A stretch of DNA of 64,000 nt, taken from assembly GCA_026415215.1 (NCBI GenBank), contig JAOAHN010000026.1, positions 9,326 through 73,325 of the forward strand, in the 5' to 3' direction. This DNA is from Candidatus Hydrogenedentota bacterium. Lineage in GTDB: Bacteria; Hydrogenedentota; Hydrogenedentia; Hydrogenedentales; Hydrogenedentaceae. The position numbers and the translations under genes are program-made. Within the stretch, counting starts at the first letter, position 1; each line of letters begins with the position of its first letter. Of this stretch, positions 37,269-46,165 are shown in pieces. Under the pieces are notes generated by a model. It saw only the letters and a program-made list of their open reading frames with translations. It was not told where the DNA came from and did no database searches.

Positions 37269-38102
37269 ATGAACTACCAAAAAAACCTTTTTGATTTAAC
37301 GGGCAAAGTAGCTGTAGTCACTGGTGGTGCAGGGATTTTAGGAACCGCAATGGTAAAAGGTTTAGCAAACGCGGGTGCCTCCGTTGCCATCGCAGACATG
37401 ATGACAGATAAAGCAGAAGAACTTAAAAAACAGGTTGAAAATTCAGGGGGTAAAGCTCTTGCAGTATTTATGGATGTCTTCAAAAAGGAGACTATCCAAA
37501 CATGTGCAGAGAAAGTTGTAGGCACATGGGGGAAAGTGGACATTCTTGTAAACGCAGTCGGTGGAAATATGAGACAAGTAACTACATCTCCAGAATTGAG
37601 CTTCTTCGATATAAAGCCAGAAGATTTTCAACGGATAATAGACCTGAATCTGTTAGGAGGGGCAATTATACCATCCCAGATTTTTGGCAAAATCATGGTA
37701 TCTAATCCTGATGGGGGCTCTATAATAAATATAGCCTCTATGAATGCCTTTCGACCACTTACAAGAATCCCCGGTTATAGTGCGGCGAAATCTGCAGTGG
37801 TAAATTTCACTCAATGGTTAGCTGTGCACTTCGCTCAAGAATACAATCCTAAGTTAAGAGTAAATGCCATTGCACCGGGATTCTTTCTGACGGAACAAAA
37901 TAGATATCTCTTAATTGATGAACAATCCGGTGAACTTACCCAAAGAGGGAAAACCATAATCGCCCACACTCCGATGGGTAGATTCGGAGAACCAGATGAA
38001 ATTATAGGCGCCCTAATATGGCTTGCAAGTGATGCCTCAAAATTTGTGACTGGAATAGTAATTCCAATAGATGGTGGATTTTCCGCATATTCGGGAGTCT
38101 GA
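37269..38102 (+). CDS. uxuB: SDR oxidoreductase, D-mannonate (fructuronate) oxidoreductase family
   Basis: TGGAGILG, VNAVGGN, YSAAK, VNAIAPGFFLTEQNR and HTPMGRFG, typical of the Bacillus-type SDR UxuB group. Confidence 0.8.
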   Translation: MNYQKNLFDLTGKVAVVTGGAGILGTAMVKGLANAGASVAIADMMTDKAEELKKQVENSGGKALAVFMDVFKKETIQTCAEKVVGTWGKVDILVNAVGGNMRQVTTSPELSFFDIKPEDFQRIIDLNLLGGAIIPSQIFGKIMVSNPDGGSIINIASMNAFRPLTRIPGYSAAKSAVVNFTQWLAVHFAQEYNPKLRVNAIAPGFFLTEQNRYLLIDEQSGELTQRGKTIIAHTPMGRFGEPDEIIGALIWLASDASKFVTGIVIPIDGGFSAYSGV

Positions 38103-38160
38103 CAACTCTAACCATGTTGATAAACTTCTAATTAATCTTGAAAACAAGAAAGGACTAATT

Positions 38161-39054
38161 ATGAGCAGTGGAGTGCAAAAATTACTTAGTCATAAACCCA
38201 GTGCCCCTTTTTTAATCGCAATAGATTCAGATGGATGTGCCTTCGACACAATGGAGCTTAAACACAAAGAATGTTTTATACCCAACACAATAAAATATTG
38301 GGGATTACAACCGATATCCAAATATGCTCGGGAGGCTGCAGAATTTGTAAATCTCTATTCAAAGTGGAGAGGAGCAAACAGATTTCCAGCTTTAGTTAAG
38401 ACATTTGACCTCTTAATGGAATGGGAGAAAGTCAAAAAGAGAAACTTTAAAGTCCCAGAAACGCCAAACTTAAGAAAATGGATTGAAACTGAGACCAAAT
38501 TGGGAAATCCGGCTCTCGAGATTTACTGCAAAGAGCACCCTGATCACGAGGATATGCAAATCACCCTTCAATGGAGCAAAGCAGTAAATAAAAGTGTGGA
38601 AGACATTGTCCAAGGTGGTCTGCCACCATTCCCATATGTTAGAGAATGTTTACAGGCGGTGCAGGGGAAAGGTGATGTAATGGTATGCTCTCAAACACCA
38701 ACCGAAGCATTAATAAGAGAATGGGAAGAACAGGACTTAGCTAAGTATGTCTTTGCTATATGTGGACAAGAAATGGGGACTAAAGCCGAACACATCAAAT
38801 ACGCATCTGAAAATAGGTATGAAAACAACAAAATTCTAATGATAGGGGATGCCTATGGAGACCTAAAAGCAGCAAAAGCAAATAAAGCACTGTTTTATCC
38901 CATAATCCCCGGGAAAGAAGATGAGTCTTGGCAAAGACTGTTTGAAGAAGGATTAGACAGATTCTTTAATGGCAATTATGCCGGAGATTATGAAGAATCA
39001 CTTATCAAAGAACTTGAAAAATATCTTCCTGATACACCTCCCTGGAAAAGATAA
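38161..39054 (+). CDS. HAD-superfamily phosphatase
   Basis: Motif I DSDGC, motif II CSQT, Lys (GTKAEH), motif IV MIGDAYGD; start taken at ATG 38161. Confidence 0.85.
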   Translation: MSSGVQKLLSHKPSAPFLIAIDSDGCAFDTMELKHKECFIPNTIKYWGLQPISKYAREAAEFVNLYSKWRGANRFPALVKTFDLLMEWEKVKKRNFKVPETPNLRKWIETETKLGNPALEIYCKEHPDHEDMQITLQWSKAVNKSVEDIVQGGLPPFPYVRECLQAVQGKGDVMVCSQTPTEALIREWEEQDLAKYVFAICGQEMGTKAEHIKYASENRYENNKILMIGDAYGDLKAAKANKALFYPIIPGKEDESWQRLFEEGLDRFFNGNYAGDYEESLIKELEKYLPDTPPWKR

Positions 39055-39072
39055 AGTTTGATACCGCTTTCT

Positions 39073-44340: not shown

Positions 44341-44356
44341 ATACAGTTATAAAGCT

Positions 44357-45157
44357 ATGAGTGATTTACATCCTGCAATCCAAGCTCTAATAGCAACCCT
44401 CTTCACTTGGGGAATGACATTAGTAGGATCTTTGCCTGCTCTTTGGACAAAACCCATTTCTCAAAAGTGGCTAAATGGCTCACTCGGAATAGCTGCTGGG
44501 GTAATGATTGCTGCGTCTTTTTGGTCATTGTTAGAACCATCTATTGAAATGAGTCTGGAGTTAGGAATGCCCGGGTGGCTACCACCCCTTATAGGCTTTC
44601 TGTTAGGAGGATTCTTATTATGGGGACTGGACAAGACATTACCACACCTACATCAAGGTTTACCTATAGAAAGTGCCGAAGGTGTTCATACATCTTGGAG
44701 AAGAAGCACTCTATTAGTGATGGCTATCACTATCCACAATATACCTGAAGGACTTGCAATCGGAGTTGCTTTTGGTGCAACCGCTTATGAGATTCCCGGC
44801 GCTTCCCTCTCAGGTGCAATTGCTTTAGCATTAGGCATAGGATTGCAGAATCTACCGGAGGGCACCGCAGTTGCATTGCCACTAAGAAGAGAGGGTTTCT
44901 CTCCCATTAAAAGTTTCTTTGTGGGGCAACTCTCAGGAGCAGTAGAGCCTATAGCGGGAGTGTTAGGTGCCTTAGCAGTAATGATAGCAAGACCTGCTTT
45001 ACCATTTGCACTCGCTTTTGCTGCAGGCGCCATGATATATGTAGTTGCGGAAGAGTTAATCCCAGAAGCCCAAAAAGAGGGTGACACTGATATACCCACC
45101 ATAGGTGTAATGATTGGATTCGCTTTAATGATGTTCTTAGATGTTGCATTAGGTTAA
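44357..45157 (+). CDS. ZIP-family (ZupT/GufA) divalent metal transporter
   Basis: HNIPEGLAIG and QNLPEG TM4/TM5 motifs; start taken at ATG 44357. Confidence 0.92.
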   Translation: MSDLHPAIQALIATLFTWGMTLVGSLPALWTKPISQKWLNGSLGIAAGVMIAASFWSLLEPSIEMSLELGMPGWLPPLIGFLLGGFLLWGLDKTLPHLHQGLPIESAEGVHTSWRRSTLLVMAITIHNIPEGLAIGVAFGATAYEIPGASLSGAIALALGIGLQNLPEGTAVALPLRREGFSPIKSFFVGQLSGAVEPIAGVLGALAVMIARPALPFALAFAAGAMIYVVAEELIPEAQKEGDTDIPTIGVMIGFALMMFLDVALG

Positions 45158-45172
45158 GGAGGAATTTTAAAT

Positions 45173-46165
45173 ATGTCGGATCAATTCAAAATTTATATCA
45201 CGCGCGAAATTCCGCAAGCTGGGCTAAATCTCTTATATAAATCCTTTGGTACAAATAGTGTAAAGTTTTATTCTGAACCCATACCTATACCAAGAGAAAT
45301 TCTAATTAAAGAAGTTAAGGAGTGTGATGCTATATTATCCATGCTTACTGACAAAATAGACAGAGAAGTAATGGATTCAGCTGGACCCCGACTAAAAATA
45401 GTAGCCAACTATGCAGTAGGGTATGATAACATTGATGTAAAAGAAGCAAATAAAAGGAAAATCTGCGTGACTAATACTCCTGGAATCCTTACAGAAACTA
45501 CTGCAGACCTTGCTTGGGCTCTAATATTAGCAAGTGCAAGGAGACTCGGTGAAGGAGAAAGGCTCCTACGCTCATCCCAATGGGCTGGCTGGAACCCTAC
45601 CCTTCTTCTCGGCGTAGATGTGCATGGAAAAACACTTGGCATATATGGAATGGGAAGAATAGGCCAAGCAGTAGCCAGACGAGCAATGGGATTTAATATG
45701 CGTGTTATCTACTACGACATAAACGAAATATATTTATCTCCGGAGATTAAGGCAACAAAAGTAGACAAAGAAACTTTACTTCGAGAATCTGATTTCATAT
45801 CAATTCATTGTCCTCTAACCCCTCAAACCATTCACTCCTTCAAATATGAAGATTTCAAGAAAATGAAAAGGACAGCATGTATTATAAATACTGCCCGTGG
45901 AGCAGTAATAGATGAAGAAGCCTTGGCTAAAGCTCTGAAAGAAGGCTTAATATTCTCAGCGGGTTTAGATGTATTTGAAAAAGAGCCCGAAGTTCACCCC
46001 GAATTACTTACATGCCCTAATGCTATACTGATTCCTCATCTTGGTAGTGCCTCTATCGAAACCCGCTCAAAAATGGCTGAAGTAGCCGCAAGAAATATAA
46101 TCGCCAGACTTAACGGGGAAATTCCCCCTAATTTAGTAAATCCTGAATCACTAACCAGCGAATAA
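45173..46165 (+). CDS. D-2-hydroxyacid dehydrogenase (glyoxylate/hydroxypyruvate reductase, GyaR-like)
   Basis: YAVGYDNID, TETTADLA, GMGRIG, NTARG and PHLGSAS. Confidence 0.92.
   Translation: MSDQFKIYITREIPQAGLNLLYKSFGTNSVKFYSEPIPIPREILIKEVKECDAILSMLTDKIDREVMDSAGPRLKIVANYAVGYDNIDVKEANKRKICVTNTPGILTETTADLAWALILASARRLGEGERLLRSSQWAGWNPTLLLGVDVHGKTLGIYGMGRIGQAVARRAMGFNMRVIYYDINEIYLSPEIKATKVDKETLLRESDFISIHCPLTPQTIHSFKYEDFKKMKRTACIINTARGAVIDEEALAKALKEGLIFSAGLDVFEKEPEVHPELLTCPNAILIPHLGSASIETRSKMAEVAARNIIARLNGEIPPNLVNPESLTSE

What the first reader, a model, noticed from the sequence alone, without database searches (positions are those of the whole stretch)
37269..46165. Candidate nickel-pincer sugar-acid epimerase shunt: uxuB - HAD - pdxB - larA-like - PPi-pfk - gnd - ZIP - 2-hydroxyacid dehydrogenase
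Seen: eight same-strand genes, several tightly spaced or overlapping; the LarA homolog keeps the DHTR, GTH, PH..FSGGxK and His motifs; no mannonate dehydratase (uxuA), kdgK or kdgA lies in the window. Established: UxuB reduces fructuronate to D-mannonate. LarA-superfamily enzymes use the nickel-pincer nucleotide and include a D-gluconate/D-mannonate 2-epimerase (GntE of Thermotoga, encoded with uxuB-type, gntK and gnd genes). Gnd feeds 6-phosphogluconate into the pentose phosphate pathway. Inference: hexuronate goes to mannonate, is epimerised at C2 to gluconate or its 6-phosphate, and enters via Gnd, bypassing the Entner-Doudoroff-like route. The extra HAD, PdxB and PPi-PFK genes are not part of the Thermotoga arrangement as I recall it, so this could be an undescribed variant.
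Basis: partly seen in the sequence, partly recalled or inferred. Interest (0 to 1): 0.8.

Follow-up and report, generated by a model that had tools for sequence, protein, structure and literature searches.

The report
Nickel-epimerase sugar-acid cluster lacking gluconokinase
An uncultured Hydrogenedentota bacterium carries a conserved gene cluster that most likely turns sugar acids into pentose phosphate using a nickel-cofactor epimerase. It has no recognisable gluconate kinase, and an extra pyrophosphate-type phosphofructokinase and a phosphatase always travel with it instead.

Summary
The eight same-strand genes are real. Seven of them, all but the ZIP transporter, keep the order SDR>HAD>PdxB>LarA>PFK>Gnd>2-HADH across nearly all Hydrogenedentota families.

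**LarA homolog.** It belongs to the D-mannonate/D-gluconate 2-epimerase (GntE) branch. Its best solved relative is Thermotoga GntE2. All cofactor-binding, catalytic and GntE-type specificity residues are invariant in 144 orthologs. larB, larC and larE are present in the genome.

**Context in other phyla.** Its orthologs sit beside the UxuB-type reductase, UxaC, UxaE, Gnd and gluconokinase-like genes.

**What does not fit.**
- This genome and its whole genus lack UxaC, UxaE, UxuA and transaldolase.
- No gluconokinase scores over its family cut-off in any of 135 genomes of the phylum.
- The PFK is a third, dedicated paralog.
- This PFK and the HAD co-cluster with LarA, the SDR and Gnd in many shuffled gene orders in metagenomes. 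They never occur together with a GntK-like gene.
- PdxB survives where the cluster was lost, so it is the housekeeping vitamin-B6 enzyme.

**Verdict.** This is a new variant of the GntE route. Its entry step and its phosphorylation step are unresolved. The open question is whether the PFK/HAD pair replaces gluconokinase or serves a transaldolase-free pentose phosphate pathway.

The parts
37269..38102 (+). UxuB-type short-chain dehydrogenase (fructuronate reductase / D-mannonate oxidoreductase family)
   Evidence: NF006132 361 bits against a cut-off of 281. It lies directly upstream of LarA orthologs in other phyla, next to UxaC or UxaE.
38161..39054 (+). HAD-IA phosphatase or phosphotransferase of a distinct family ('HAD-X'). 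The ORF is open from 38071, but the likely start is 38161.
   Evidence: DSDG, S/T, K and GDxxxD motifs are intact. Pfam HAD_2 scores 23.6 against a cut-off of 23.8. An AF2 model with pLDDT 72 matches beta-PGM, the MtlD phosphatase domain, CbbY, YniC and Gph folds. Orthologs are present in 120 of 135 phylum genomes.
39058..40233 (+). PdxB, 4-phosphoerythronate dehydrogenase (housekeeping PLP pathway)
   Evidence: NF001309 424.6 bits against 434, with DUF3410. It is the only PdxB in the genome, and pdxA and pdxJ are present. It is retained in relatives that lost LarA, HAD and PFK-X.
40226..41485 (+). GntE-like LarA homolog (nickel-pincer-nucleotide hexonate 2-epimerase)
   Evidence: Best solved relative is 4NAR (T. 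maritima GntE2), 203 bits over residues 15-412. D40, R43, H74, H159-E-V, K169, H185, W277, K281 and A341-H342 are invariant in 144 orthologs. Orthologs are present in 116 of 135 phylum genomes.
41566..42852 (+). Dedicated PPi-type phosphofructokinase paralog ('PFK-X')
   Evidence: PRK14072 370 bits. The PPi-type GGNDS and PKTIDND motifs, MGR, and the R243 and R252 equivalents are kept. It is the third PFK in the genome, beside a canonical PRK14072 paralog and an ATP-PFK. Identity is 73-80% across the phylum and 66-77% in metagenome clusters.
42886..44340 (+). Gnd, decarboxylating 6-phosphogluconate dehydrogenase (single copy)
   Evidence: TIGR00873 772 bits. It is the only hit in the genome.
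44357..45157 (+). ZIP/ZupT metal transporter. It is a genus-level insertion, not part of the conserved unit.
   Evidence: Pfam Zip and NF003243. It is present only in the closest relatives L010-L012, L093 and L094. The start is inferred.
45173..46165 (+). GyaR/GhrB-like D-2-hydroxyacid (2-ketoacid) reductase
   Evidence: NF009714 400 bits against 455. It follows Gnd in many phylum loci at 54-65% identity. It was not seen with the cluster outside the phylum.

Best explanation
The cluster is a variant of the GntE route that feeds sugar acids into the pentose phosphate pathway.

**Shown or strongly inferred.** The UxuB-type SDR and the nickel-pincer LarA homolog form a reductase/2-epimerase pair. 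They convert a 5-keto-hexonate of the fructuronate type, through the manno-configured hexonate, into the gluco-configured hexonate. Gnd then decarboxylates the 6-phosphate of that hexonate to ribulose 5-phosphate. NPN is made by larB, larC and larE, which are encoded elsewhere in the genome.

**Inferred (about 40%).** In this cluster type the missing gluconokinase step is supplied by the dedicated PPi-PFK paralog, with the HAD-IA enzyme as its partner. Three forms of this are possible:
- PPi-dependent phosphorylation of gluconate.
- Phosphorylation at the ketose stage, giving 6-phosphomannonate as the LarA substrate, as in the route shown biochemically in L. suebicus.
- A relay in which the HAD passes phosphate from fructose 1,6-bisphosphate to the acid.

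**PdxB.** It is the housekeeping 4-phosphoerythronate dehydrogenase. It is kept in the operon probably because its substrate is a potent inhibitor of Gnd, not because it shares a substrate with LarA.

**Still unknown.** The source of the keto-acid in this UxaC-less genus.
For: - LarA is GntE-like. Its best solved relative is 4NAR, and the E-V / W / A-H signature of PMC11770544 and PMC7583248 is invariant.
- larC, larE and larB are present.
- LarA orthologs in 6 or more phyla lie next to the SDR, Gnd, UxaC, UxaE and GntK-like kinases.
- Hydrogenedentota LarAs form one clade that also holds the UxaC-adjacent copies L069 and L075.
- The order SDR>HAD>PdxB>LarA>PFK>Gnd(>2HADH) is kept in about 38 loci from many families, with changing flanks and inserts.
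- Of 21 metagenome HAD-X loci with 4 kb or more on each side, 16 carry LarA, 15 the SDR, 15 Gnd and 11 PFK-X. They show 19 different gene orders.
- 51 LarA loci have PFK-X or HAD-X and no GntK-like gene. 5 have a GntK-like gene and no PFK-X or HAD-X. None has both.
- TIGR01313 is found in 0 of 135 genomes, and no genome scores over the cut-off for TIGR01314. The best FGGY kinase of this genome is XylB.
- PFK-X is a third paralog whose presence and absence follows LarA and HAD-X.
- PdxB is kept where the cluster is lost.
- 4-phosphoerythronate (4PE) inhibits Gnd (PMC6449344).
- A 6-phosphomannonate 2-epimerase activity exists whose gene is unknown (PMC6978723).
Against: - UxaC, UxaE, UxuA, UxaA and KduI are absent from this genome, so no fructuronate source is visible.
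- Nothing I found shows a PfkA-family enzyme phosphorylating a non-phosphorylated sugar acid.
- PFK-X keeps ordinary PFK substrate residues and is very highly conserved, as expected of an F6P/S7P enzyme.
- Gnd>PFK>HAD trios occur without LarA or the SDR within 7 kb (L167, L133/L138).
- No alignment column separates LarAs of PFK/HAD-type clusters from those of GntK-type clusters. This argues against a switch to a phosphorylated substrate, although only 4 GntK-type sequences were long enough to compare.
- The role of the HAD is not defined by fold or sequence.
- No expression data could be obtained.
Confidence: 0.5

Rival explanations
1. This is a pentose-phosphate 'support' module. PFK-X is the sedoheptulose-7-phosphate (and F6P) kinase of a transaldolase-free non-oxidative branch. 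It handles the pentose phosphate made by Gnd. HAD-X is a 4-phosphoerythronate phosphatase. PdxB consumes the same compound, which protects Gnd. The SDR and LarA feed gluconate, and an unrecognised kinase encoded elsewhere phosphorylates it.
For: Transaldolase (PF00923) is absent from all 10 genomes of the genus and from 98 of 135 phylum genomes. PPi-PFKs are known to do this job in Entamoeba and in clostridia (PMC7029132, PMC12203962). 4PE inhibits Gnd, and HAD-type phosphatases clear it in eukaryotes (PMC6449344). Gnd>PFK>HAD trios exist without LarA. PdxB co-clusters in 7 of 21 metagenome loci and in nearly all phylum loci. PFK-X keeps the canonical residues.
Against: Nearly every genome already has a second PRK14072 PPi-PFK. 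This includes the family-f7 genomes that lack both PFK-X and transaldolase. PFK-X also coexists with transaldolase in genomes such as G069, G071, G095 and G106. This reading leaves the gluconokinase step empty in an entire phylum. It does not explain the mutual exclusion with GntK-like genes.
Confidence: 0.33
2. Only the SDR and LarA are functionally linked, as an ordinary GntE-type uronate module. pdxB, pfk, gnd and the 2-HADH are unrelated housekeeping genes. Their position next to this module is inherited synteny within one phylum.
For: PdxB is housekeeping and survives loss of the cluster. Inserted genes such as a TPR lipoprotein, URO-D-like and VOC genes break up the string in many genomes. 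The scan found no intrinsic terminators or promoters above chance, so it gives no evidence on operon structure either way. Earlier notes of this scan read it this way.
Against: PFK-X, HAD-X and Gnd re-associate with LarA and the SDR in 19 different gene orders in metagenome contigs. Some of these carry a deep-branching LarA (26-29% identity) in the same slot. PFK-X is a dedicated third paralog. It is lost together with LarA and HAD-X.
Confidence: 0.12
3. LarA and PdxB share a four-carbon phospho-acid. LarA would epimerise 4-phospho-D-threonate to 4-phospho-D-erythronate for PLP synthesis, and the HAD would act on the same pool.
For: PdxB and LarA overlap by 8 nt. The PdxB>LarA adjacency recurs in several arrangements.
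Against: LarA carries the hexonate-type GntE signature. Its orthologs work without PdxB, next to UxaC, UxaE and Gnd. PdxB persists without LarA.
Confidence: 0.05

Closest known systems
Thermotoga maritima hexuronate route with GntE2 (LarAH20, PDB 4NAR): UxaC/UxaE, fructuronate reductase, GntE, GntK, Gnd (PMC7583248; described in PMC6978723)
   Same: Both have an NPN-dependent LarA homolog of the GntE branch next to an SDR-type fructuronate reductase, feeding Gnd instead of the UxuA-KdgK-KdgA route. The specificity residues are the same (H-E-V/S loop, W before the catalytic Lys, A-H).
   Different: There is no FGGY or SKI-type gluconokinase in the cluster, the genome or the phylum. UxaC and UxaE are absent from this genus. 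A PPi-PFK paralog, a HAD-IA enzyme, PdxB and a GhrB-like reductase are conserved extras. The LarA clade is separate from GntE2: 203 bits to 4NAR, and only 160-194 bits on the NCBIfam group-18 model, whose cut-off is 500.
LarAH groups 18 and 19 of Desguin et al. 2020 ('putative hexonate epimerase' and GntE1 of Corynebacterium glutamicum)
   Same: The published context of group 18 (SDR 36%, Gnd 32%, UxaC 12%) resembles the context of this clade. The EV / W / A signature is shared.
   Different: Membership of a numbered group could not be tested, because no GntE1 or group-18 sequence was at hand. The NCBIfam group-18 cut-off is not met. PFK, HAD and PdxB are not among the listed neighbours of groups 18-20.
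Lactobacillus suebicus galacturonate route: mannonate kinase plus 6-phosphomannonate 2-epimerase (PMC6978723)
   Same: Mannonate reaches 6-phosphogluconate and Gnd without UxuA. The epimerisation may occur on the 6-phosphate. The epimerase gene is still unidentified, so a LarA clade like this one is a candidate.
   Different: There the kinase activity is attributed to GntK homologs, which are absent here. No PPi-PFK or HAD is implicated in that route.
SBP bypass of transaldolase by PPi-PFK (Entamoeba, cellulolytic clostridia; PMC7029132, PMC12203962)
   Same: A PPi-type PFK occurs in a genome without transaldolase, next to a pentose-phosphate-pathway gene.
   Different: Here a second PPi-PFK paralog is present genome-wide. 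PFK-X follows LarA and HAD-X rather than the absence of transaldolase.
4-phosphoerythronate proofreading (yeast Pho13, mammalian PGP, B. subtilis CpgA; PMC6449344)
   Same: A HAD-family phosphatase and a 4PE-consuming enzyme lie next to Gnd, the enzyme that 4PE inhibits.
   Different: No sequence relationship to PGP or Pho13 was shown. The substrate of HAD-X is unknown. HAD-X also occurs in clusters without PdxB.

Membership tests
LarA superfamily (NPN-dependent 2-hydroxyacid racemases/epimerases) | Lar_N domain and full-length LarA fold | tested here: met
   PF09861 scores 73 bits against a cut-off of 23.3. The alignment to 4NAR covers residues 15-412.
LarA superfamily (NPN-dependent 2-hydroxyacid racemases/epimerases) | NPN-binding Arg, Lys and His, and the catalytic Asp, two His and Lys (LarA R75, K184, H200; D72, H108, H174, K298) | tested here: met
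   R43, K169, H185, D40, H74, H159 and K281 were assigned through the 4NAR alignment. All are invariant in 144 orthologs.
LarA superfamily (NPN-dependent 2-hydroxyacid racemases/epimerases) | NPN biosynthesis genes larB, larC and larE in the genome | tested here: met
   larC scores 451.7 bits, larE 287 bits and larB 288.9 bits, all over their cut-offs.
LarA superfamily (NPN-dependent 2-hydroxyacid racemases/epimerases) | Nickel-pincer cofactor bound, and isomerase activity | not testable with these tools
   This needs purified, NPN-loaded protein.
GntE (D-mannonate/D-gluconate 2-epimerase, LarAH19/20) | Specificity signature E, V/S after the catalytic His; W in helix alpha-11; A-H in helix alpha-14 | tested here: met
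   PHEVV, WTAGK and LAHS are invariant in 144 orthologs.
GntE (D-mannonate/D-gluconate 2-epimerase, LarAH19/20) | Groups with characterised GntE proteins rather than with lactate or malate racemases | tested here: inconclusive
   4NAR scores 203 bits, against 40 bits for a lactate racemase and 25 bits for Mar2. No tree with GntE1, GntE2 and group-18 sequences could be built. The NCBIfam group-18 model gives 172 bits against a cut-off of 500.
GntE (D-mannonate/D-gluconate 2-epimerase, LarAH19/20) | Gene context with a fructuronate reductase and Gnd | tested here: met
GntE (D-mannonate/D-gluconate 2-epimerase, LarAH19/20) | Epimerisation of D-mannonate to D-gluconate in vitro | not testable with these tools
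   An enzyme assay is needed. 6-phosphomannonate should be tested in parallel.
Thermotoga-type hexuronate-to-pentose-phosphate route | Uronate isomerase UxaC and/or tagaturonate epimerase UxaE in the genome | tested here: not met
   tblastn with UxaC, UxaE and E. coli UxaC found nothing. PF02614 is absent from this genome and from the whole genus. Both genes do lie next to LarA orthologs in other lineages.
Thermotoga-type hexuronate-to-pentose-phosphate route | Gluconokinase GntK | tested here: not met
   TIGR01313 is found in 0 of 135 genomes. No genome scores over the cut-off for TIGR01314. The best FGGY kinase of this genome is XylB.
Thermotoga-type hexuronate-to-pentose-phosphate route | Absence of the UxuA dehydratase branch, and presence of Gnd | tested here: met
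   There is no UxuA or UxaA hit, and a single Gnd.
PdxB (4-phosphoerythronate dehydrogenase) | Equivalog score, the DUF3410 dimerisation domain, and the partner genes pdxA and pdxJ | tested here: met
   NF001309 scores 424.6 bits, just under the cut-off of 434. DUF3410 scores 47.7 bits. pdxA and pdxJ are present, and this is the only PdxB in the genome.
PPi-dependent phosphofructokinase (PRK14072 subfamily) | Family score; the PPi-type residues at E. coli positions 104 and 124 (Asp, Lys); the catalytic TIDND and MGR motifs | tested here: met
   370 bits against a cut-off of 273. GGNDS, PKTIDND and MGR are present, and the R243 and R252 equivalents are kept. The phosphoryl donor and the sugar substrate were not assayed.
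HAD superfamily, subfamily IA | Four catalytic motifs and a Rossmann-like core with a C1 cap | tested here: met
   The motifs DSDG, S/T, K and GDxxxD are present. Fold matches to beta-PGM, CbbY, YniC and Gph have probability 1.0 and TM scores of 0.4-0.57, and the cap is poorly modelled. Pfam HAD_2 scores 23.6 against 23.8.
L. suebicus mannonate kinase / 6-phosphomannonate 2-epimerase route | A GntK-homologous mannonate kinase | tested here: not met
   No GntK homolog scores over the cut-off in the phylum.
L. suebicus mannonate kinase / 6-phosphomannonate 2-epimerase route | 6-phosphomannonate 2-epimerase | not testable with these tools
   The gene is unidentified in the literature (PMC6978723). 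This LarA clade is a candidate.

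The most novel reading that the evidence does not exclude
The dedicated PPi-PFK paralog, alone or in a phosphoryl relay with the beta-PGM-like HAD, is the missing kinase of the route. 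It would be the first PfkA-family enzyme to phosphorylate a non-phosphorylated sugar acid (gluconate, mannonate or fructuronate). This very large LarA clade would then be, or would include, the orphan 6-phosphomannonate/6-phosphogluconate 2-epimerase detected in L. suebicus extracts.
Probability: 0.25. Interest if true: 0.85.

Novelty: new variant of a known kind. Interest (0 to 1): 0.6.

Why it matters
NPN-dependent epimerases are a young enzyme family, and most of its clades are uncharacterised. This clade is very large: the search returned its maximum of 8000 hits. It is nearly universal in a whole candidate phylum (116 of 135 genomes) and has no curated family model.

Its fixed partnership with a dedicated PPi-PFK paralog and a HAD-IA enzyme, together with the phylum-wide lack of gluconokinase, defines a concrete missing-enzyme problem. 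That problem can be settled with five purified proteins.

The answer would do one of two things. It could reveal new kinase chemistry and assign a gene to the orphan 6-phosphomannonate 2-epimerase activity, which is of interest for redox-neutral pectin fermentation. Or it could document a hard-wired protection module for Gnd in a transaldolase-free pentose phosphate pathway.

Tried and rejected
- **Lactate or malate racemase identity for LarA:** rejected. PDB scores are 25-40 bits against 203 for GntE2, and the specificity residues differ.
- **The FGGY kinase on contig C35 as the missing gluconokinase:** rejected. It is XylB, scoring 400 bits to 2ITM against 237 to a gluconate kinase.
- **The AP_endonuc_2-like gene at window 10865-11782 as the ortholog of the TIM-barrel gene found inside some clusters:** rejected at 21% identity.
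- **c43, the protein downstream of LarA in L032 and L033, as a divergent HAD:** rejected. It is an unrelated, membrane-like protein.
- **Specificity-shift test between LarAs of PFK/HAD-type and GntK-type clusters:** no discriminating column was found.
- **PFK-X substrate residues:** they are no different from those of other PRK14072 members, so sequence does not reveal the substrate.
- **HAD-X function from sequence:** there was no PDB sequence hit, and the fold search gave only generic HAD-IA matches.
- **Promoter and terminator scan:** results were at chance level and uninformative.
- **Own-genome search for KduI, cluster-type AP_endonuc_2, UxaE, UxaC, UxuA and UxaA:** all negative.

Full report
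**Observation.** The region 37269-46165 holds eight + strand ORFs. Pfam and NCBIfam identify them as follows:
- a UxuB-type SDR (NF006132, 361 bits, cut-off 281);
- a HAD-like protein;
- PdxB (NF001309, 424.6 bits against 434, plus DUF3410);
- a LarA homolog;
- a PRK14072-type PPi-PFK (370 bits against 273);
- Gnd (TIGR00873, 772 bits);
- a ZIP transporter;
- a GyaR/GhrB-like 2-hydroxyacid dehydrogenase.

Ortholog alignments move the HAD start to about 38161 and the ZIP start to 44357. PdxB and LarA overlap by 8 nt, and the other gaps are 3-80 nt. Source names of the closest homologs place the organism in Candidatus Hydrogenedentota.

**What the LarA homolog is.**
- Its best solved relative is 4NAR, the T. 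maritima D-gluconate 2-epimerase GntE2, at 203 bits over residues 15-412. Lactate and malate racemases reach only 25-40 bits.
- Mapped through that alignment onto the residues listed by Desguin et al. (PMC7583248), the protein keeps the NPN ligands (R43, K169, H185) and the catalytic set (D40, H74, H159, K281).
- It also carries the E-V loop, the W before the catalytic Lys and the A-H pair. Urdiain-Arraiza et al. give this combination as the GntE signature (PMC11770544).
- All twelve positions are invariant in 144 orthologs.
- The only related NCBIfam model, the group-18 'putative hexonate epimerase', gives 172 bits against a cut-off of 500. Orthologs from other phyla score 160-194 bits. The clade therefore lies in the GntE branch but outside any curated model.
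- I could not obtain GntE1 or group-18 sequences, so assignment to a numbered group is open.
- larC, larB (adjacent to each other) and larE are present elsewhere in the genome, all over their cut-offs. A second, unrelated LarA homolog lies on another contig.

**Context outside the phylum.** Twenty-seven loci from species genomes encode orthologs at 46-84% identity. They come from Verrucomicrobiota, Acidobacteriota, Abditibacteriota, Chloroflexota, Planctomycetota and Thermodesulfobacteriota. Recurrent neighbours are:
- the same SDR, directly upstream;
- Gnd;
- UxaC (707 bits) and UxaE (410 bits);
- a small SKI-type kinase and an FGGY kinase.

This is the Thermotoga logic: uronate, then fructuronate, mannonate, gluconate, 6-phosphogluconate and Ru5P.

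**Conservation inside the phylum.**
- The LarA ortholog is present in 116 of 135 genomes, and in 79 of 86 high-quality ones.
- In about 38 loci from many families the order SDR>HAD>PdxB>LarA>PFK>Gnd, often followed by the 2-HADH, is kept. The flanks change and various genes are inserted.
- The ZIP gene occurs only in the closest relatives.
- In a maximum-likelihood tree the Hydrogenedentota LarAs form one clade with 100/99 support. That clade also contains two copies in UxaC-adjacent arrangements, L069 and L075. The enzyme in the 'core' arrangement is therefore very likely the same epimerase.

**What is missing.**
- In this genome tblastn finds no UxaC, UxaE, UxuA, UxaA, GntK, GntP-type transporter or KduI. 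It does find zwf, pdxA, pdxJ, an eda-like gene and a gap gene.
- UxaC scores over the cut-off in only 39 of 135 phylum genomes and in none of the 10 genomes of this genus.
- SKI-type gluconokinase (TIGR01313) is found in 0 of 135 genomes. No genome scores over the cut-off for FGGY-type gluconokinase (TIGR01314). The best FGGY kinase of this genome is a xylulokinase.
- Transaldolase is absent from the genus and from 98 of 135 genomes.

**PFK and HAD are real partners.**
- The genome has three PFKs: an ATP-PFK (599 bits on its equivalog), a canonical PRK14072 PPi-PFK (422 bits) and the cluster copy, PFK-X.
- PFK-X orthologs (73-80% identity) and HAD-X orthologs are present in about 118 and 120 of the 135 genomes. 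Both are missing from the same lineages that lack LarA: four genera of family f7, and G001. G002, which has a UxaC-SDR-LarA locus, has neither.
- A metagenome scan seeded on HAD-X gave 80 loci.
- Of the 21 loci with 4 kb or more on both sides, 16 carry LarA, 15 the SDR, 15 Gnd, 11 PFK-X (66-77% identity), 7 PdxB, 4 UxaE and 1 UxaC. They show 19 different gene orders.
- Several carry a deep-branching LarA (26-29% identity). It keeps the H-E-V and A-H residues, its best solved relative is again 4NAR, and it sits in the same slot.
- Re-association in shuffled orders is the classical sign of functional coupling rather than inherited synteny.
- Pooling all LarA loci with 3 kb or more on each side: 51 have PFK-X or HAD-X and no GntK-like gene, 5 have a GntK-like gene and no PFK-X or HAD-X, none has both, and 12 have neither. 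These counts are not phylogenetically independent.

**PdxB.** It is the only PdxB in a genome that has pdxA and pdxJ. Full-length PdxB orthologs persist in f7 genomes that lost LarA, HAD-X and PFK-X. It is therefore the housekeeping PLP enzyme. Its recurrent place next to LarA or HAD needs another reason. The best available one is that its substrate, 4-phosphoerythronate, is a strong inhibitor of Gnd (PMC6449344).

**Limits of sequence analysis.**
- PFK-X has the PPi-type GGNDS and PKTIDND motifs, MGR, and the equivalents of E. coli R243 and R252. H249 is replaced by Thr, as in other PRK14072 members. Nothing in the sequence marks a changed substrate.
- HAD-X has all four HAD motifs, including both Asp of DxD. 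Its model (pLDDT 72) matches only generic HAD-IA enzymes: beta-phosphoglucomutase, a mannitol-1-phosphatase domain, CbbY, YniC and Gph.
- No alignment column separates LarAs of PFK/HAD-type clusters from those of GntK-type clusters.

**Mechanism.**

*Shown or strongly inferred:* the SDR and LarA act as a reductase/2-epimerase pair that delivers a gluco-configured hexonate, whose 6-phosphate is consumed by Gnd. NPN is supplied by LarB, LarC and LarE.

*Unresolved:* where the keto-acid comes from in this genus, and who phosphorylates. I put these odds on the phosphorylation step:
- About 40%: the PFK-X/HAD-X pair supplies the step. This could be direct PPi-dependent phosphorylation of gluconate, which would also explain the Gnd>PFK>HAD trios. 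It could be phosphorylation of fructuronate, an F6P analogue, giving 6-phosphomannonate as the LarA substrate as in L. suebicus (PMC6978723). It could be a relay from FBP through the beta-PGM-like HAD.
- About 33%: PFK-X is the S7P kinase of a transaldolase-free pentose phosphate pathway (PMC7029132, PMC12203962), and HAD-X and PdxB clear 4-phosphoerythronate. In that case an unknown kinase must exist.
- About 12%: mere juxtaposition of unrelated genes.
- About 5%: a four-carbon phospho-acid substrate shared by PdxB and LarA.

**Comparison and novelty.** The cluster works like the Thermotoga GntE route and may overlap with the L. suebicus route. It fails two defining features of the former, UxaC/UxaE and GntK, and it has three or four conserved extra components. 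It is a new variant of a known kind. Earlier notes of this scan on sister genomes reached a similar reading of LarA and PdxB. The present work adds:
- the phylum-wide numbers;
- the absence of gluconokinase, UxaC and transaldolase;
- the dedicated-paralog status of the PFK;
- the shuffled-order evidence that PFK-X and HAD-X belong to the unit. This contradicts the earlier view that PFK and gnd form a separate module.

**Not done.** No tree with characterised GntE sequences was built.

Noticed in passing
window 32908-32945: There is a perfect 14-bp inverted repeat (TTTTGGTATTACTA ... TAGTAATACCAAAA) with a 10-nt spacer containing TATAAT. It lies just upstream of the DUF1559-ZnuA-like ABC transporter operon that precedes the cluster. 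Another note of this scan reads it as a NikR-like operator. A nickel-uptake system next to an NPN enzyme cluster would make sense, but this was not tested.
   Followed up: partly
own genome, contig C78:40484-41077 (locus L001): A second LarA homolog of 437 aa is unrelated to the GntE branch. It scores about 270 bits on the malate-racemase and LarAH10 models, below both cut-offs. Its substrate is unknown.
   Followed up: partly
own genome and phylum (no window coordinates): Transaldolase (PF00923) is absent from all 10 genomes of the genus and from 98 of 135 Hydrogenedentota genomes, while two PPi-PFK paralogs are the rule. This suggests a sedoheptulose-bisphosphate type of pentose phosphate pathway in the phylum.
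   Followed up: partly
L010 (CAZZMK010000034.1): This record is titled 'uncultured Nitrospirales bacterium'. Yet it carries the whole region, from the ZnuABC-like genes to PCMT, in the same order as the window, with 56-94% protein identity. It is probably a mislabelled or mis-binned Hydrogenedens-like contig.
   Followed up: no
L049, L057, L060 and others, between LarA and PFK: A roughly 200-aa TPR lipoprotein gene lies on the same strand between LarA and PFK-X in 17 of 40 phylum loci. A TPR gene also lies next to the cluster in metagenome locus L121.
   Followed up: partly
L114, L116, L121, L149, L170: A deep-branching LarA (26-29% identity to the window protein, catalytic and H-E-V / A-H residues kept, best solved relative 4NAR) occupies the epimerase slot in PFK>HAD>(PdxB)>LarA>Gnd clusters. 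In L121 a KduI/IolB-family gene, an AP_endonuc_2 gene, an aldo-keto reductase and another PFK flank the cluster.
   Followed up: partly
L020, L038, L051, L133/L138: URO-D-family (uroporphyrinogen decarboxylase-like) genes recur next to or inside the cluster in different lineages. Their role is unknown.
   Followed up: no
window 19892-20842 (-): A PfkB-family sugar kinase of unclear specificity lies here. Its best hits, the IolC N-domain (144 bits), ribokinase (120 bits) and KDG kinase (106 bits), are all far below their cut-offs. It is one of the few candidates in the genome for an unconventional sugar-acid kinase.
   Followed up: no
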